From NCBI GenBank assembly GCA_964410135.1, contig CAYPFQ010000001.1:92373-141847 (forward strand): 49,475 bases of DNA, read 5' to 3'. The notes under the pieces were generated by a model, which saw nothing but the letters and a program-made list of their open reading frames with translations, was not told where the DNA came from and did no database searches. Positions 2,472-8,225 of the stretch are shown here, one piece after another (positions within the stretch are counted from its first letter, which is position 1; every line of letters starts with the position of its first letter). A program made the position numbers and the translations under genes. The stretch is from an uncultured Candidatus Bathyarchaeia archaeon. GTDB taxonomy: Archaea > Thermoproteota > Bathyarchaeia > RBG-16-48-13 > CAYPFQ01.

Positions 2472-3155
2472 CTACTCGACTAGAGGAAATATCTCCTCAG
2501 CTACGTATGATACAAAGTCAGGTTCGCTTATTTTGCCGAAAACCGCCACTATCCCATCTCTGGTGAGACCAACTATAGTCCCATATTTTTTGGACGTCAT
2601 TACTATATACCAGATTTTTCCGTGGCTGGTGTAGTCTGCGTATAGTGCCGTGTCAGCCAAGCTCGGGCCGCAGAGGGAGAGCTTGCTTATGTTAGGGATG
2701 TCCACATCATCAAACCATATCAGTTTCGTACCCTCAGGATTTTCTTCGTGGAAGTGTTTCATAACTTCCTGCAGTATCCTCACTTCCACTATCTGACCTG
2801 AGGAAATGAAGAGAATTGCACTAAGCTGATTAGCTATCCTATTCGCTTCAAGCTTTTTCTCGATGATTAAGAGCAAAACTCGATTTTTATACGTCGAAAA
2901 TAGGAATGGAGTTTCTTTTGTCATTAGAGTTGGAACTATCTCATCCCTCTGACGAATTCCTATAACCTTGTCTTGAATGAATGATCCATGGAGCATTCCC
3001 CTCCGCAGTGTTAGGTTCTGGATCTCAGTTACAAGTTCAAAGCGGTGCGGCTCCTGCTCAAACATTTCCTCTTTCCTAAAATCCTTCAGCTTTATAGCGA
3101 TCTTGTCTAACCCCAAACTCTCGCGTAGTTTAAAGATCTTTCCAGCCACAACCAT
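2472..3155 (-). CDS. Hypothetical soluble alpha/beta protein, divergent from the SMC operon
   Basis: 227-aa ORF with an upstream purine-rich RBS-like run and normal composition; no motif recognised. Confidence 0.7.
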   Translation of the reverse strand: MVVAGKIFKLRESLGLDKIAIKLKDFRKEEMFEQEPHRFELVTEIQNLTLRRGMLHGSFIQDKVIGIRQRDEIVPTLMTKETPFLFSTYKNRVLLLIIEKKLEANRIANQLSAILFISSGQIVEVRILQEVMKHFHEENPEGTKLIWFDDVDIPNISKLSLCGPSLADTALYADYTSHGKIWYIVMTSKKYGTIVGLTRDGIVAVFGKISEPDFVSYVAEEIFPLVE

Positions 3156-3271
3156 GCTGTTCTCCCTCTCTGTAGCTATCCTAAAAGCCGCTCATCTAAG
3201 TTTAAATCTATGTTCCTCCACGCTTTTCTCGTTACATTACGCTCTTAATAAGATACTAAGTCGTGCAAACA

Positions 3272-5236
3272 ATGTTGGGTAAAGAGGCCGCTTATGTACC
3301 AAGACGGAAATCACCGCCCATCATAGAGGAAGTTACCCTAGAAAATTTCATGTCCTACGAGTATGCCAAAATTCCATTAAAACCAGGTCTAAACATCATT
3401 TGTGGCCCAAATGGCGCTGGAAAATCCTCGATTCTTCTAGCTATCTCAGTCGCCCTTGGGCAAGCGTATACTGAAAGGGCTAGAAAATTAAGTGACCTGA
3501 TTAGACGGGGAAAAGACATAGCCAGGGTGACGATAACATTCGGCACCGTCCTCAGGGAAGGGGAGAATTCCTCTACCAAACACCGGCCAGACAAATTCGT
3601 AATATCTCGATACATAAAGAAAGACGGCACATATTGGTATGAGGTCAACTTCCATCCCAAGAACAAAGAGGAGGTTTCTAGTCTCCTAACTGGTTTCGGA
3701 ATAGATCCCAACAATCTCCTTATAATTATGCACCAAGGTATGCTGGAAGAGTTTGTTACTACAACCCCTCCGCAGAAGCTAAAAATGGTAGAGGATGCTG
3801 TGGGGTTTCGAGAATATCGAGAAAAAATTTTGGAAGCGCAAACTAAGTTAACCAAACTCTTGAGCGAGGAAGCCTCTATCACAAGCCTCCTTGAAAATGC
3901 TGAGCAAACACTCAATCATTGGAAAGAAGAATATGAACGGTATCTGCGCAAAAAGGAGTTGTTGGAGAAGAGAGACTTCCTCGAACGGGAATTAGCCTGG
4001 TCCCAAGTTATTAGAAAGGAGAAGGTCATGCAATCCTTAGAAGATAAGATTCGAAAAAGGAAATTGAAACTGGAGAATATAAAAAATAGAATCGAAAAAG
4101 CAAGGAAATTGATCGGCAGCCTTCAACAAGCCCTTAGCAACCTTTCTATAGAACAGAAGAAACAGTTCTTCACTCTGCTCAGCCTAGAAAAAGAGAGAAG
4201 CGAGGCGGAGACAGCTAAAAAGATCCTCAGTGAAGTTATCGAACAATTGCAAAATCAAAATCCGCTTGCTGAAAATCTTCAGGCGTATCTACACGAAGCC
4301 AAGTCACAAATAGAACGCACAGAGGAAAATATCGGAGAACTAAAAAAGAAGATCTCTGCCATCCAATCCAGCCTAGACAAAACCGAGAAGACCGTAAATC
4401 CAACTATGGAGAGCTACATCGATGAGCGGGTGGAGGAGGCGGTTCTGCTTTTTAGAAAAGAAATGACTGAAAATGAAATCGCCGAATATGAAAAAGAACT
4501 CAAAGAAGCGCAGAGCGAACTCAGCCAACTCCTTCCCATAGCCGAAAAAATGGGTGAGCGTGTTAAGACAGAGCGTTCTTCAATTGAAGTTTCCGAGGAT
4601 CTTAAAGTCACAAACGCCTACATAACATCAATTGGAGAAGTATCTGAAGACACTGAAAAAATGTACAAGCATTACATGAAACTCTACAGTGAACTAAAGG
4701 AAAAGCTTACAATCGTCTCAGAGAATAGGAAAAGAGTTCTGGAAGAGATTGAAGTAAGGAAAAACACTTGGAAAAACATCCTTCAAAAACTTCTCGACGA
4801 TGTTAATCCCATTTACAACCAGATTCTCTCTAGAATGGACGCTATCGGCAGGGTTAGGCTAACCAATTTGGAGTCGATTGAAACTGCAGGTCTGGAGCTA
4901 TCGGTTGGCTTTAGAGGAGCAGAGCCAGCTGTTTTAGATGCCTACACCCAAAGTGGAGGGGAAAGAAGCGTGGCTGTGATGTCCTTCCTTCTAGCGCTAC
5001 AGCATCGCATAGAATCGCCTTTCCGCGCTGTAGATGAATTTGACATTCACATGGATCCAAGGAACCGGGAAGCCATCTATCAAGTTTTAATTTCAACTGT
5101 CAAGGCGGATAGCGAGGTTCAGAATGTCGTAATAACTCCTGGAACAATCACCTCCGCCGACAAAGATGTGCACATAATAACTGTGCAAAATGTGAGAGGG
5201 GTTTCTGAAGTAAGGACTGTGAATTATAATGCTTAA
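3272..5236 (+). CDS. Short SMC-family ATPase, Smc5/6-like (ClsN/Sph/archaea-specific SMC-related type)
   Basis: Walker A GPNGAGKS, Q-loop MHQG, long coiled coil, signature QSGGERS, Walker B FRAVDEFDIHMD, ITP in place of the ITH switch. ATG 3272 lies about 20 nt after TTAATAAG (track start 3263). Confidence 0.9.
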   Translation: MLGKEAAYVPRRKSPPIIEEVTLENFMSYEYAKIPLKPGLNIICGPNGAGKSSILLAISVALGQAYTERARKLSDLIRRGKDIARVTITFGTVLREGENSSTKHRPDKFVISRYIKKDGTYWYEVNFHPKNKEEVSSLLTGFGIDPNNLLIIMHQGMLEEFVTTTPPQKLKMVEDAVGFREYREKILEAQTKLTKLLSEEASITSLLENAEQTLNHWKEEYERYLRKKELLEKRDFLERELAWSQVIRKEKVMQSLEDKIRKRKLKLENIKNRIEKARKLIGSLQQALSNLSIEQKKQFFTLLSLEKERSEAETAKKILSEVIEQLQNQNPLAENLQAYLHEAKSQIERTEENIGELKKKISAIQSSLDKTEKTVNPTMESYIDERVEEAVLLFRKEMTENEIAEYEKELKEAQSELSQLLPIAEKMGERVKTERSSIEVSEDLKVTNAYITSIGEVSEDTEKMYKHYMKLYSELKEKLTIVSENRKRVLEEIEVRKNTWKNILQKLLDDVNPIYNQILSRMDAIGRVRLTNLESIETAGLELSVGFRGAEPAVLDAYTQSGGERSVAVMSFLLALQHRIESPFRAVDEFDIHMDPRNREAIYQVLISTVKADSEVQNVVITPGTITSADKDVHIITVQNVRGVSEVRTVNYNA

Positions 5237-6059
5237 GCAAAAGAAAAAAGTTGAGCGAGAATATCTCCTCCAAATAATCGATTTATGCCGAATGGTAGAG
5301 CGCAGGGGAATTAACCCCTTTGAAGTAGATGTCAAAGAGATCTTGGAGAAACTAAGAGAATATCTGCCAGCTTGGAAAATGCCAAAGGATTTCTGTCTTG
5401 ACGCCGAGACGCTGTATGAGATCGCTGACTTAGTGAGGCTACAGGGAGAATGGATTAAACATCGTTCTTCATCGCTCTATGTTGATTCTATACTAGTAGC
5501 CTTAAAGATTAGAACCCTTGGAGTTGACGGTCTCGCTCACACTCTTCTAAGAGCTTGGCATCCGATTGTAGCAGTAGAGCAGCTTTCTTCTGAAAGGCTT
5601 AGAGACGCTATTAACTATTGGAATGGGCTTCTTCCGCTTAGCCAGAGGATAGCTGGGCTCCCCTCCCGAACTGGTTTATCAGGCGTTGTTGATGCTGATG
5701 AATTGCTTAGGCTGGGAGTTCTGTCAAAAGAGGAGTTCAATAGCATTTTAACCTCTTACTGGAAGGATTTGCTGAAGAAAACTGAGTATAGTGGAAAAAT
5801 GCCATACTGGGATTTTGTGTATGCTGATGACTTTGAAAGCACTGTAGCAAAGGCTTTATTTGTCAGTTTTATGGTGACCTATGGCTACGCCACCCTAGAG
5901 GCAGACCCCGTAAAAAATGAGCTATTCATAGTCCCATTTAAGGAACCCGTGCTTTCTATACATGGAACGCAGGGTTCCTCAGTACCAGTCTCAATAAGTT
6001 ATGAGGACTGGGAGAAACATAGACAGGTGAGAGGTAAGAACATTGGCAAAGAAAGCTGA
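5229..6059 (+). CDS. Kleisin (ScpA/Nse4-like) subunit
   Basis: N-terminal INPFEVDVKEILEKLREYL resembles the ScpA 'IDPWDIDI' helix region. C-terminal FVSFMVTYGYATLEADPVKNELFI resembles the kleisin winged helix. Start overlaps the SMC stop. Confidence 0.7.
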   Translation: MLKQKKKVEREYLLQIIDLCRMVERRGINPFEVDVKEILEKLREYLPAWKMPKDFCLDAETLYEIADLVRLQGEWIKHRSSSLYVDSILVALKIRTLGVDGLAHTLLRAWHPIVAVEQLSSERLRDAINYWNGLLPLSQRIAGLPSRTGLSGVVDADELLRLGVLSKEEFNSILTSYWKDLLKKTEYSGKMPYWDFVYADDFESTVAKALFVSFMVTYGYATLEADPVKNELFIVPFKEPVLSIHGTQGSSVPVSISYEDWEKHRQVRGKNIGKES

Positions 6060-6624
6060 GGAAGCTGCGAGTTACGCTCGAAAATTGCGTAAGGCTGCCC
6101 AGCTTCTCTTTTTCCAGAGGCATAAAAAGCCAGGTGTCAAAGGATGGGAGTTGAAGAAGGTTCTCGGGAAGGATTACATGAAGGTTATAGGTCTTCTCAG
6201 TATTGAACTAGAAAAACTGGGATTTCAAATCAAGACTTTATCTGAAGAAGCCGAGTCTCCTGAAGGTTCAACTGAAGAGCAAGTGGATAGAGCCAGATTT
6301 TTCGTAACTTTAAAGGAGCCTGTGGCATCACCAGAAGCTATAGCAGGAGGCTGGAGAATCGACGATATTGCAATGCTAGCCGCCGTAGTGGCATACATCA
6401 TCTCAAAGCAGGGGAAAGCTCCAAGGAGAGAGGTGGAACAGATCCTCAGAGATAAGTTTCCTATGTGGCGAATTGAACTCAATCTAGAACGATTCATACG
6501 AAGAGGATATCTAGCCCAAGATGAAGAGGGTGTTCTATACTTGGACTGGAGAGCAAGAGCCGAAATAGACTCAAAAGCGTTGCTCAATCTCATACTTGGA
6601 GGAGTGGAAAAGAGGGAATCCTAA
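6043..6624 (+). CDS. KITE (tandem winged-helix; ScpB/Nse1/Nse3-like) subunit
   Basis: Two wHTH-like halves; C-terminal LERFIRRGYL...LYLDWRARAEID resembles Nse1/MAGE WH-B. Overlaps the kleisin stop. Confidence 0.7.
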   Translation: MAKKAEEAASYARKLRKAAQLLFFQRHKKPGVKGWELKKVLGKDYMKVIGLLSIELEKLGFQIKTLSEEAESPEGSTEEQVDRARFFVTLKEPVASPEAIAGGWRIDDIAMLAAVVAYIISKQGKAPRREVEQILRDKFPMWRIELNLERFIRRGYLAQDEEGVLYLDWRARAEIDSKALLNLILGGVEKRES

Positions 6625-6654: not shown

Positions 6655-7407
6655 ATGGCAGGTTTAACAGCTCAAGCCCAAATTCAGGCTCAAAGGGCTA
6701 AAATTCCTCGCATATTGTTGGGCACATCTCCCTTCATTGGAGCTGGACAATTTGGCTCCCGGGCTTTCCAGTACTATTGTCATTTCTATGAGCACCCAGA
6801 AAACATAGTCAAAATCATCGGTAAATCCACTGATTTAGGGGTTCGCGGGATCCATGTGCTTCCATACCCTCCAGTTGTCAAAGCGATTAAACTTGCTGAG
6901 CATGACCTCAAATTAGAACTATCTGTTCTCGGAACAGTACGTTCAGAGGATCCTTACGGGGACATCGAGATTCTACAAGGTTTAAGGGCTGTAGCTATGC
7001 TTATTCACGGTGAGATAACCGACTCACATAACCAAAATAAAATCAATGAGCTCCTCAATCAAATTCGGCAGGTAGGATCCTTAGCTGGCATAGTTACTCA
7101 CGCGCCTTTTTCTACTCTAGAATGGGTGCAGAAAGCCGGCATTGACATCGACATGATCATGATCCCCTTTAATAAGCTCGGGAAATTCATGGACTCCACT
7201 CCTGAGAAAGTGTTAGAGGTAGCATTGAGAACTGGCAGGCTCCTAATTGGAAAAAAGGTATTAGCTGCAGGCGGGCTGGGTCCTCGTGAAGGATTAGAGT
7301 ATGCCTTTAAAAACGGCATTAAAACCGTGGCTGTTGGAATAGCGTCTGAATCAGAGGCTGAGGAAACTTTTTCAGTAGCGACTGAGTTGCTGCGAAAATA
7401 TCAGTAA
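6655..7407 (+). CDS. Aldo/keto-reductase-like TIM-barrel protein
   Basis: IPRILLGTSPF, MIPFNKLG and IGKKVLAAG segments are typical of the AKR-like fold; catalytic residues are not clearly canonical. Confidence 0.5.
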   Translation: MAGLTAQAQIQAQRAKIPRILLGTSPFIGAGQFGSRAFQYYCHFYEHPENIVKIIGKSTDLGVRGIHVLPYPPVVKAIKLAEHDLKLELSVLGTVRSEDPYGDIEILQGLRAVAMLIHGEITDSHNQNKINELLNQIRQVGSLAGIVTHAPFSTLEWVQKAGIDIDMIMIPFNKLGKFMDSTPEKVLEVALRTGRLLIGKKVLAAGGLGPREGLEYAFKNGIKTVAVGIASESEAEETFSVATELLRKYQ

Positions 7408-7427: not shown

Positions 7428-8162
7428 TTACCTAGCAGATACAATCTGACTAAAGTCGAGCAAGGGTCCACCGACAATCTTCAGCCTCGGAACAATCTTG
7501 TCCTTTGTGATTTCGATAATATTGTAGGAGTTCTCGAAGAACCCGCGTAGCCTACTGGTTGAGACTGCTCCAGCGCAAACAAAATCTATGCCATTCAAGT
7601 TCCACATCCACGGTCTGTGGCGGTGTCCGCTCAAAACAAGGTCAGTGTGGAGGTTTGAAACTGCCTTTAGCACATCTCCTGCATCTTCAACGATCGCCTT
7701 CTCTAGTCCGGTGTCCGGAATCGGGATTAGATGGTGGTGCATCACCAGAATGTTTATCTTTTCTCTTGATCCTGTGAATGCTTTTTCGATCAGCTCCATC
7801 TGATCCCTGCTTATGCGTCCCTCATCCCTATCCGGTCTTGCAGTGTTAACGTACACAATAGTGTAACTATCGCCGTCGAAAATTCCTCCAGGCTTTCCGA
7901 ACAGCTCCTCAAAAATTATGAATCCCGTATGTCTTGCATCGTGGTTACCCATTGTGAAAATTTTTGTAGGACATGTAATTTGATCGATGAAGCGTTTTGC
8001 CTCTTCGAACTCACTCTTAATTCCATTCTCGGTTAAATCGCCAGCTAGAATCACGACATCCGGCTTCAATGCATTGATTTCGCTGATGGCTTCTGTCAGC
8101 TTAGTCTTCAGAAATATTTCAGTGGGGCCACAGTGAATGTCTGAAATTTGAACGATTATCAT
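7428..8162 (-). CDS. Calcineurin-like metallophosphoesterase
   Basis: Motifs DIH, GDLT, GNHD, HH, GHRH. Track start 8180. Confidence 0.9.
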   Translation of the reverse strand: MIIVQISDIHCGPTEIFLKTKLTEAISEINALKPDVVILAGDLTENGIKSEFEEAKRFIDQITCPTKIFTMGNHDARHTGFIIFEELFGKPGGIFDGDSYTIVYVNTARPDRDEGRISRDQMELIEKAFTGSREKINILVMHHHLIPIPDTGLEKAIVEDAGDVLKAVSNLHTDLVLSGHRHRPWMWNLNGIDFVCAGAVSTSRLRGFFENSYNIIEITKDKIVPRLKIVGGPLLDFSQIVSAR

Positions 8163-8225
8163 GGGAACCACTTTGTACAAAAACCTAAACTAAACATTCT
8201 GATTAATCTGCTTTTAGGTGATTTA

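What the first reader, a model, noticed from the sequence alone, without database searches (positions are those of the whole stretch)
3272..6624. Complete archaeal Smc5/6-like SMC-kleisin-KITE operon built on a short, apparently hinge-less SMC
Seen: three overlapping ORFs. The SMC head has QSGGERSV, ESPFRAVDEFDIHMDPRNR and an 'ITP' where most SMC/Rad50 proteins have the 'ITH' switch. As recalled, Smc5 has QSGGERSV, Smc6 has ESPFRCLDEFDVYMD..NR, and both have T-P, so this one protein mixes features of both paralogues. At about 655 aa it has no recognisable globular hinge. Next come a ScpA/Nse4-like kleisin and a single tandem-WH protein ending in an Nse1/MAGE-like 'F...GYL...Y...RA..E' motif. 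No nuclease or effector is adjacent. Inference: a minimal homodimeric pre-duplication Smc5/6-like machine for chromosome organisation or extrachromosomal-DNA surveillance. Related SMCs (ClsN, Sph, Arcadin-4) and TACK/Asgard Smc5/6-like homologues have been proposed bioinformatically (recalled), but I know of no biochemical characterisation of such a tripartite complex.
Basis: partly seen in the sequence, partly recalled or inferred. Interest (0 to 1): 0.8.

Follow-up and report, generated by a model that had tools for sequence, protein, structure and literature searches.

The report
Hinge-less archaeal Smc5/6-like operon
A Bathyarchaeia genome carries a three-gene operon related to the eukaryotic Smc5/6 DNA-maintenance complex; the gene family is already catalogued, but its SMC protein has lost the hinge that normally joins two SMC arms, which the papers I read do not mention.

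Summary
Three overlapping + strand ORFs (3272-5236, 5229-6059, 6043-6624) encode three proteins. The first is a 654-aa SMC ATPase whose best solved-structure matches are Smc5 and Smc6. The second is a 276-aa kleisin whose only solved relatives are Nse4. The third is a 193-aa tandem winged-helix protein whose predicted fold matches Nse3/MAGE and Nse1 ahead of ScpB and MukE. AlphaFold2 predicts the SMC as head, a 149-residue helix, a 5-residue turn, then the return helices: no globular hinge. The tip is the least conserved part of the family and holds nearly all of its internal length variation.

The operon type is not new. Yoshinaga & Inagaki (2021) and van Hooff et al. (bioRxiv, v2 2025) described SMC5/6-related SMC, Nse4-like kleisin and Nse1/3-like kite operons in TACK and Asgard archaea. 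One of their example clusters, in Bathyarchaeota E29_bin60, is an ortholog of this one.

Hinge loss is not mentioned in the papers I read. It looks derived: an 835-aa relative with a real hinge sits in the same kind of operon. The cluster is housekeeping-like: at least 545 species genomes, no nuclease, no defence-system match. Function is inferred, probably an ATP-driven DNA clamp for genome maintenance. How two SMCs pair without a hinge is open.

The parts
3272..5236 (+). SMC5/6-related SMC ATPase, 654 aa, hinge-less
   Evidence: Pfam SMC_N, E 1.5e-34. Best solved-structure matches are Smc5/Smc6. AlphaFold2 model has mean pLDDT 82.9. The family is 548-700 aa in Bathyarchaeia and Nitrososphaerales.
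3320..3802 (+). N-terminal half of the ATPase head (aa 17-177), with Walker A GPNGAGKS at 3404-3427
   Evidence: Secondary structure of the model. Invariant G45 P46 N47 G48 G50 K51 S52.
3809..4255 (+). Outgoing arm: one continuous helix, aa 180-328 (about 22 nm if a straight coiled coil)
   Evidence: Model, block pLDDT 73-92, about 90 except near the tip. The length in nm is my arithmetic at about 0.15 nm per residue.
4256..4270 (+). Apex: a 5-residue turn NQNPL (aa 329-333) where other SMCs carry the hinge
   Evidence: Model. Lowest conservation in the protein (0.32-0.38). 32 of the 34 insertion columns within the arms lie at aa 330 (2 at aa 342). No conserved motif or cysteine.
4271..4831 (+). 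Return arm, aa 334-520: helices 334-427, 437-454 and 461-520, with two breaks (428-436, 455-460) near the head, joint-like
   Evidence: Model. The top Foldseek hit is the Pyrococcus Smc head with coiled coil and joint, 5xei.
4832..5233 (+). C-terminal half of the head (aa 521-654): signature QSGGERS at 4949-4969, Walker B/D-loop FRAVDEFDIHMD at 5021-5056, ITP at 5132-5140
   Evidence: Closest to the Smc5 C-head: 60-66 bits, against 44 for Pyrococcus Smc and 35-45 for Smc6. Motif comparison.
5229..6059 (+). Nse4-like kleisin, 276 aa; C-terminal winged-helix domain at about aa 192-264 (nt 5802-6020)
   Evidence: Pfam Nse4_C, E 3.6e-4, below the curated cut-off. 44 of 57 family members match Nse4_C, best E 3.3e-6. 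A family profile finds only Nse4 chains in the PDB, E 0.003-0.01. The N-terminal domain was not identified.
6043..6624 (+). Nse1/Nse3-like KITE, 193 aa, two winged-helix domains, no RING finger
   Evidence: AlphaFold2 mean pLDDT 80.3. Foldseek against the PDB: MAGE-G1/Nse3 5hvq_D E 3.8e-6; Nse3 7dg2_C E 8.9e-6 with TM 0.58; Nse1 5hvq_C and 7dg2_A. ScpB ranks 9th and MukE 48th.
2472..3155 (-). Divergently transcribed 227-aa protein of unknown fold; a candidate fourth partner or merely a conserved neighbour
   Evidence: Homologs (41-54% identity) lie upstream of the SMC on the opposite strand in 25 of 48 loci that have more than 1.5 kb upstream, in both Bathyarchaeia and Nitrososphaerales. No Pfam, NCBIfam, PDB or PADLOC match. 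Unrelated to the kleisin and the KITE.
3156..3271 (.). 116-nt divergent intergenic region with A/T-rich TATA-like boxes (TTTAAAT 3201-3207; TTAATAA 3245-3251, about 24 nt before the ATG at 3272)
   Evidence: Read from the sequence. Promoter function is inferred only; no archaeal promoter tool was available.

Best explanation
This is the Bathyarchaeia version of the archaeal 'SMC5/6-related' complex, a second chromosomally inherited SMC machine found alongside the canonical Smc-ScpAB in this lineage. It has one SMC, one Nse4-like kleisin and one Nse1/3-like KITE.

Shown:
- the identities of the three proteins;
- their conserved operon;
- intact ATP-binding and hydrolysis motifs;
- an SMC whose arms, about 150 residues each way, close in a short, variable turn instead of a hinge.

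Inferred mechanism:
- Two SMC heads sandwich two ATP.
- The kleisin N-terminus binds the neck of one SMC and its C-terminal winged helix binds the cap of the other.
- A KITE homodimer sits on the middle of the kleisin.
- Together they clamp DNA on top of the engaged heads, as in DNA-bound yeast Smc5/6.

With no hinge, the two SMCs would be held together by heads, kleisin and KITE, and possibly by side-by-side arm contacts. The complex would then act as an ATP-gated DNA clamp or bridge in repair or replication-linked genome maintenance, rather than as a large hinge-closed ring. The hinge was lost secondarily in the lineage leading to the Bathyarchaeia and Nitrososphaerales forms.
For: - SMC identity.
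- Kleisin identity.
- KITE identity.
- No hinge. 49 of 55 full-length family cluster representatives are 548-685 aa.
- Operon conservation: relatives of the KITE were found in at least 545 species genomes. In the 80 best loci the SMC (635-697 aa), kleisin and KITE are adjacent in about 60.
- Published orthology: L040 (contig SOJC01000029.1, Bathyarchaeota E29_bin60) is the example SMC5/6-related cluster in van Hooff et al. Table S3, and that genome also carries a condensin/cohesin-related set (text).
- Phylogenies placing TACK homologs with SMC5+6: PMC8665677.
- Secondary loss: P0473, 835 aa with Pfam SMC_hinge, is followed by proteins matching this kleisin profile (E 2.7e-8) and this KITE profile (E 1.8e-10).
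- Housekeeping context: arginine/lysine and carbamoyl-phosphate genes lie in the window. Flanking genes other than the upstream one are not conserved. The kleisin, the KITE and the upstream gene have no PADLOC match.
Against:
- AlphaFold2 on a monomer cannot show a tip-to-tip or arm-to-arm dimer. pLDDT at the tip is only about 70.
- The kleisin N-terminal domain was not matched to any known kleisin.
- The KITE is linked to Nse1/3 by predicted fold only: sequence support is weak, with SMC_Nse1 matched in 5 of 56 members at E>0.01.
- In a few genomes the kleisin-KITE pair has no adjacent SMC.
- The window does not show whether this particular genome also has a canonical Smc.
Confidence: 0.7

Rival explanations
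1. Same complex, but the SMC arms do dimerise at or near their tips (RecN-like tip-to-tip packing or a four-helix bundle) or zip along their whole length. A small closed SMC-kleisin ring would then still form and entrap or extrude DNA with short steps.
For: All characterised SMC-kleisin complexes need a closed ring (established knowledge). The arm half nearest the head is moderately conserved, 0.6-0.7. Arm length is tightly kept, with 49 of 55 clusters at 548-685 aa.
Against: The tip is the least conserved and most length-variable part, with no shared motif, cysteine pair or hydrophobic patch. A conserved interface would be expected to leave a trace.
Confidence: 0.25
2. A defence system against plasmids or viruses, analogous to Wadjet or Lamassu or to the restriction of extrachromosomal DNA by human Smc5/6.
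For: Eukaryotic Smc5/6 restricts viral episomes (PMC10586767, listed). The SMC gives generic matches to LmuB, AriA and mad3 ATPase models.
Against: - No nuclease or other effector is conserved nearby.
- The kleisin and the KITE have no PADLOC match.
- The cluster is present in at least 545 species genomes with conserved order, in a biosynthetic neighbourhood. That is the pattern of a vertically inherited core function, not of a patchy defence island.
Confidence: 0.08
3. The protein belongs to the hinge-less archaeal SMC-related proteins (ASRP: ClsN/Sph), or to Rad50/arcadin-4, rather than to the Smc5/6 branch. The neighbouring genes would then not be a kleisin and a KITE.
For: Similar size to ASRPs (about 600 aa) and no hinge. 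Three long relatives (1016-1047 aa) carry a central CxxC like the zinc hook reported for ASRPs and Rad50.
Against: - NCBIfam scores are far below the cut-offs: ASRP 68 bits against 300, arcadin-4 42 against 860, Rad50 models 47-71 against 700-1087.
- Rad50 chains score about 35 bits against 158-182 for Smc5/6.
- The window protein has no CxxC at its apex.
- The neighbours match Nse4 and Nse1/3.
Confidence: 0.03

Closest known systems
Archaeal 'SMC5/6-related' SMC + Nse4-related kleisin + Nse1/3-related kite operons (Yoshinaga & Inagaki 2021, PMC8665677; van Hooff, Raas, Tromer & Eme, bioRxiv 10.1101/2024.01.07.573240)
   Same: Same three gene families, same order and same lineage. The published example cluster SOJC01000029.1_1-3 of Bathyarchaeota E29_bin60 is locus L040 here: SMC 680 aa (44% identical), kleisin 272 aa, KITE 184 aa.
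   Different: Nothing at the level of the genes. [quoted passage not shown]
Eukaryotic Smc5/6 core (Smc5-Smc6, Nse4, Nse1-Nse3)
   Same: Head motifs specific to this branch: QSGGERS as in Smc5, DEFDxxMD..NR as in Smc6, and T-P in place of the H-loop. Also an Nse4-type kleisin C-terminal winged helix and a KITE fold closest to Nse3/MAGE and Nse1.
   Different: - One SMC and one KITE gene instead of two paralogues each.
- No hinge, and arms about half as long.
- No RING on the KITE.
- No Nse2, Nse5 or Nse6 seen in the operon.
Prokaryotic Smc-ScpAB
   Same: Homodimeric SMC, a roughly 270-aa kleisin, a small tandem winged-helix KITE and an operon layout. The SMC model resembles the Pyrococcus Smc head plus joint.
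   Different: Smc is about 1170-1200 aa with a Pfam hinge (P0499). The kleisin here matches Nse4_C, not ScpA. The KITE matches Nse3/Nse1 ahead of ScpB.
Hinge-bearing short-armed relative P0473 (835 aa) in GCA_037305845.1
   Same: Heads and arms align at 27-30% identity. It is followed by homologs of this kleisin and this KITE.
   Different: It has a Pfam SMC_hinge (aa 341-452) where the window protein has 29 residues. It is also preceded by an overlapping AAA+ ATPase gene.
Hinge-less SMC variants of marine Actinobacteria (PMC12153180)
   Same: SMC-type heads and a coiled coil without a hinge or CxxC, found by metagenomics and AlphaFold.
   Different: They are bacterial and branch with canonical actinobacterial Smc. 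No kleisin/KITE operon is reported in the passages I read.
ASRP (ClsN, Sph1/2), Rad50, RecN
   Same: ABC-type heads on a coiled coil without an SMC hinge.
   Different: ASRPs and Rad50 dimerise through a zinc hook; RecN, from my own knowledge, dimerises through its coiled-coil tips. From my own knowledge none of them uses kleisin and KITE partners. Sequence scores are far below family cut-offs.

Membership tests
SMC proper (SMC-kleisin branch of the SMC superfamily) | Split ABC head with Walker A, Q-loop, signature, Walker B and D-loop | tested here: met
   Pfam SMC_N, 119.8 bits against a cut-off of 40. Motifs invariant in 57 sequences.
SMC proper (SMC-kleisin branch of the SMC superfamily) | Long intramolecular antiparallel coiled coil | tested here: met
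   Model has helices 180-328 and 334-520. At about 150 residues per strand the arm is short; canonical Smc and Smc5/6 proteins are about 1050-1200 aa overall.
SMC proper (SMC-kleisin branch of the SMC superfamily) | Globular hinge dimerisation domain between the arm strands | tested here: not met
   No SMC_hinge match. A 5-residue turn in the model. The tip is variable, with no motif. Pfam misses the Smc6 hinge too (P0493), so the model and residue arithmetic carry this point.
SMC proper (SMC-kleisin branch of the SMC superfamily) | Partnered with a kleisin and KITE (or HAWK) subunits | tested here: met
   By gene neighbourhood and homology only. Physical binding was not tested.
Smc5/6 branch | Head sequence groups with Smc5/Smc6 rather than Smc1-4, prokaryotic Smc or Rad50 | tested here: met
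   Profile against the PDB: the top 10 hits are all Smc6/Smc5. Branch-specific motifs. Ortholog placed there in published trees. I built no tree myself.
Smc5/6 branch | Nse4-type kleisin | tested here: met
   Met for the C-terminal winged helix only: Nse4_C in 44 of 57 members and Nse4 the only PDB hits. The N-terminal domain was not identified.
Smc5/6 branch | Nse1/Nse3-type KITE | tested here: met
   Foldseek top seven hits are Nse3/MAGE or Nse1. By sequence alone the result is inconclusive.
Eukaryotic Smc5/6 holocomplex | Smc5-Smc6 heterodimer and Nse1-Nse3 heterodimer | tested here: not met
   One SMC gene and one KITE gene in the operon, here and in the related loci.
Eukaryotic Smc5/6 holocomplex | Nse1 RING finger; Nse2 SUMO ligase; Nse5/6 | tested here: not met
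   The KITE is 193 aa and its model contains only the two winged-helix domains. None of the nearby genes scanned matches these families. van Hooff et al. state that the RING is absent from archaeal kites.
ASRP (ClsN/Sph) | NCBIfam NF045487 above its cut-off; central zinc-hook CxxC | tested here: not met
   68 bits against 300. No CxxC at the apex.
Rad50 / arcadin-4 | Family model above its cut-off; zinc hook; Mre11 partner | tested here: not met
   47-71 bits against 700-1087, and 42 against 860. The only nearby phosphoesterase (7428-8180) is not conserved in related loci.
Wadjet / Lamassu defence systems | JetABCD or LmuABC gene set with a nuclease effector | tested here: not met
   Only generic ATPase-level matches for the SMC. 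The other genes give none.

The most novel reading that the evidence does not exclude
A widespread natural SMC-kleisin-KITE machine works with no hinge and no other tip dimerisation. Its SMC arms would be free hairpins, and DNA would be handled by the head/kleisin/KITE clamp alone. That would show that hinge closure is dispensable for the core activity of the Smc5/6 lineage. It would also offer a small, probably thermostable model of that core, possibly with the conserved upstream 227-aa protein as an undescribed fourth subunit.
Probability: 0.3. Interest if true: 0.75.

Novelty: new variant of a known kind. Interest (0 to 1): 0.55.

Why it matters
Hinge dimerisation is treated as a hallmark of SMC-kleisin complexes. 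The hinge is invoked in DNA entry, ring closure and obstacle bypass. Here a whole clade of Smc5/6 relatives keeps the kleisin and the KITE but has dropped the hinge and halved the arms.

If the complex is active, it is a natural deletion experiment. It asks which SMC activities (DNA clamping, translocation, loop extrusion, entrapment) need a closed arm compartment.

It also refines the evolutionary picture. The TACK members used to root the Smc5/6 lineage are structurally derived, not a simple model of the ancestor. The small size (654 + 276 + 193 aa, one gene each) makes the complex attractive for reconstitution and structure work.

The limit is that the gene family and operon are already in the literature, and nothing here is biochemical.

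Tried and rejected
- **KITE by sequence.** Sequence searches of the KITE against the PDB, as a single sequence and as a profile, found nothing significant. Only the fold search worked.
- **N-terminal head alone.** It does not separate Smc5/6 from Pyrococcus Smc or Smc2 (50-58 bits each). The Smc5/6 signal comes from the C-terminal head and from the profile.
- **Foldseek with the whole SMC model.** It ranks Smc, Smc5/6, condensin and Rad50 heads close together and does not discriminate.
- **Pfam SMC_hinge as a test.** Its absence is not sufficient, because it also misses a eukaryotic Smc6 hinge. I relied on the model and the alignment instead.
- **Long relatives as the ancestral form.** The 1016-1047-aa relatives with a central CxxC have no Pfam hinge. 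One, L081, has about 500 nt of held downstream sequence, and nothing in any frame matches the kleisin or KITE profiles. They look like a separate paralogue, and I could not resolve their tip.
- **Upstream 227-aa gene.** Pfam, NCBIfam, PADLOC and a PDB profile search gave nothing, as did profile-profile comparison with the kleisin and the KITE.
- **Rejected families.** ASRP/ClsN, Rad50, arcadin-4, RecN and RecF were rejected on scores. A defence system was rejected on context.
- **RNA genes.** No tRNA or Rfam feature in the window.
- **Not done.** I built no phylogeny of my own because no named outgroup sequences were available offline. I relied on published trees that include the ortholog.


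Full report
**What is in the sequence**

Three + strand ORFs overlap head to tail:
- 3263/3272..5236, 654 aa from the ATG at 3272;
- 5229..6059, 276 aa;
- 6043..6624, 193 aa, with a TTG start.

An identical 654-aa protein is already on record from metagenomes (P0001), so 3272 is the start that gene callers use. The window is about 46% G+C and otherwise carries ordinary biosynthetic and redox genes. These include carbamoyl-phosphate synthase, argininosuccinate lyase, a 2-isopropylmalate/homocitrate-synthase-family (LeuA-like) protein, a P-type ATPase and a molybdopterin oxidoreductase. It has no tRNA or Rfam feature. The closest relatives of all three proteins are from Bathyarchaeia, then Nitrososphaerales, so the window is most likely a Bathyarchaeia contig.

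**The SMC**

Pfam gives SMC_N at E 1.5e-34 and no hinge match even at E<=1. NCBIfam scores are far below the cut-offs for Smc, Rad50, ASRP, arcadin-4, RecN and RecF.

Against solved structures, the single sequence is best matched by human SMC5 at E 2.4e-31. A profile of 57 family members puts ten Smc6/Smc5 chains on top:

| Match | Bits |
|---|---|
| Smc6/Smc5 (ten chains) | 158-182 |
| Smc2 | 134 |
| Pyrococcus Smc | 129 |
| Rad50 | about 35 |

The C-terminal head carries most of this signal: Smc5 60-66 bits, Pyrococcus Smc 44, Smc6 35-45. The N-terminal head alone does not discriminate.

- Solved Smc5 chains read QSGGERSV, PFRVVDEINQGMD..NE and ITP.
- An Smc6 from the sponge Sycon reads LSGGERSF, PFRCLDEFDVFMD..NR and LTP.
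- Canonical archaeal SMCs read SGGEKS and PFYxLDEVD and have no T-P.
- The window protein combines QSGGERS with DEFDIHMDPRNR and ITP, all invariant or nearly so in the family.

**No hinge**

The AlphaFold2 model (57-sequence alignment, mean pLDDT 82.9) reads as follows:
- head strands and helices to aa 177;
- one helix, aa 180-328;
- a turn, aa 329-333 (NQNPL);
- helices 334-427, 437-454 and 461-520, with two short breaks near the head;
- the C-terminal head.

All roughly 340 residues between the head halves are therefore arm, about 150 residues (roughly 22 nm) each way.

In the family alignment, aa 321-360 is the least conserved block (0.32-0.38, against about 0.9 in the motifs). 32 of the 34 insertion columns within the arms sit at aa 330, the other two at aa 342. 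Read directly, the tips range from a bare 'EP' turn to about 30 extra residues, with no shared motif and no cysteines.

A search of 1.84 billion cluster representatives shows a discrete family (1007 down to about 225 bits). In it, 49 of 55 full-length representatives are 548-685 aa. Scores then drop to about 217 bits, where proteins of 907-1207 aa begin. These include eukaryotic SMC6 and canonical archaeal SMC.

**The kleisin**

ORF2 matches Pfam Nse4_C at E 3.6e-4, below the curated cut-off. 44 of 57 family members match that model (best E 3.3e-6) and none matches ScpA. A family profile finds only Nse4 chains among all solved structures: yeast at E 0.0033 and human EID3 at E 0.0043, over the C-terminal winged helix. 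I could not identify the N-terminal domain and had no prediction slot left for it.

**The KITE**

ORF3 has no significant sequence match. Its model (mean pLDDT 80.3) is two winged-helix domains.

Foldseek against the PDB ranks MAGE-G1/Nse3, Nse3, Nse1, Nse1, yeast Nse3, yeast Nse1 and MAGE-A4 first, at E 3.8e-6 to 1.9e-3 and TM up to 0.58. ScpB comes ninth and MukE forty-eighth. The protein has no RING finger.

**Conservation of the cluster**

In the 80 best loci the three genes keep the same order and strand and overlap or abut. The SMC is 635-697 aa, the kleisin about 270 aa and the KITE about 190 aa. All three are adjacent in about 60 loci, and most of the rest are cut by contig ends.

Downstream genes are not conserved. 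The kleisin, the KITE and the upstream gene have no defence-system match, and the SMC has only generic ATPase-level ones.

**What is already known**

Yoshinaga & Inagaki (2021) found archaeal SMCs, mostly from TACK metagenomes including Bathyarchaeota. These group with SMC5+SMC6 and were named 'SMC5/6-related aSMC'.

Van Hooff et al. (bioRxiv, v2 May 2025) added Nse4-related kleisins and Nse1/3-related kites. They showed that the genes form operons separate from a condensin/cohesin-related set, and proposed a whole-complex duplication before the TACK-Asgard split.

Their example cluster in Bathyarchaeota E29_bin60, SOJC01000029.1_1 to _3, is my locus L040. Its SMC is 680 aa and 44% identical to the window protein. 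That genome also has the canonical-type set. The operon in the window is therefore a member of a published family.

None of these texts or supplements mentions that the proteins are short or lack a hinge. A full-text search for hinge-less SMCs found only a bacterial case in marine Actinobacteria. I found no biochemical or structural work on the archaeal complex.

**Direction of change**

One family relative, P0473 (835 aa, 292 bits), has a true Pfam hinge at aa 341-452. It lies in a closed 3.58-Mb genome, GCA_037305845.1. There it overlaps a 211-aa gene and is followed by a 167-aa gene. These match the window's kleisin profile (E 2.7e-8) and KITE profile (E 1.8e-10).

Heads and arms align with the window protein. 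Where P0473 has 212 residues, the window protein has 29. Eukaryotic Smc5/6 also have hinges. Hinge loss in the Bathyarchaeia and Nitrososphaerales forms is therefore the simpler reading, and 'minimal' here means reduced, not primitive.

**How it most likely works**

Shown: the parts list, intact catalytic motifs, the arm architecture and the operon.

Inferred from established SMC mechanism and from DNA-bound Smc5/6 structures:
- Two heads engage on ATP.
- The kleisin bridges the neck of one SMC to the cap of the other.
- A KITE homodimer binds the kleisin.
- DNA is clamped on the heads.

Without a hinge, the dimer must be held by heads, kleisin and KITE, or by arm contacts. I rate the free-arm clamp reading as the more likely and tip or arm dimerisation at about 0.25. 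The tip shows no conserved interface, but this cannot be settled without multimer modelling or biochemistry.

A genome-maintenance role is favoured over defence, because the cluster is near-universal in the lineage, syntenic and lacks an effector.

**Verdict**

The operon itself is already in the literature. The hinge-less, short-armed architecture of a kleisin- and KITE-associated SMC appears undescribed and is a real structural variant worth testing.

Noticed in passing
window 2472-3155 (- strand): A 227-aa protein with no recognisable domain is transcribed divergently from the SMC. Homologs sit upstream of the SMC on the opposite strand in 25 of 48 related loci, often within 300 bp, in both Bathyarchaeia and Nitrososphaerales. 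It is a possible accessory factor or co-regulated gene.
   Followed up: partly
P0093, P0106, P0391, P0392, P0395 (loci L081, L082): Close relatives of the SMC (about 52% identity in the heads) are 1016-1047 aa. They carry about 390 extra arm residues and a conserved central 'IKCDxCGSILTPNQW' CxxC motif like a zinc hook, with no Pfam hinge. In L081, nothing in the roughly 500 nt held downstream matches the kleisin or KITE profiles. This is a possible separate paralogue: Smc5/6-type heads on a hook-type arm.
   Followed up: partly
L083 3625-8632 (GCA_037305845.1, CP147778.1): The hinge-bearing 835-aa relative sits in a four-gene overlapping set: an AAA+ ATPase (459 aa), the SMC, the kleisin (211 aa) and the KITE (167 aa). 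ThiF and RING-finger genes lie nearby. The organism was not identified here.
   Followed up: partly
P0402, P0413-P0415, P0426 and similar: Some family members are only 548-600 aa and align to the profile in two pieces. Their arms are about 45 residues shorter per strand than in the window protein, so arm length steps down further within the clade.
   Followed up: no
L024, L067, L016, L002, L003: In a few genomes, including two closed chromosomes, the kleisin-KITE pair has no SMC gene directly upstream. The SMC may be elsewhere in those genomes or lost.
   Followed up: no
window 7428-8180 (- strand): A 250-aa calcineurin-like metallophosphoesterase lies 800 nt downstream of the operon. It belongs to the same broad superfamily as Mre11, but it is not conserved next to the operon in any of the 80 related loci, so it is probably unrelated.
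   Followed up: yes
window 6655-7407 (+ strand): A 250-aa ORF starts 30 nt after the KITE stop and could be co-transcribed. It has only a weak TIM-barrel (ribulose-phosphate epimerase-like) match and is not conserved in related loci.
   Followed up: partly
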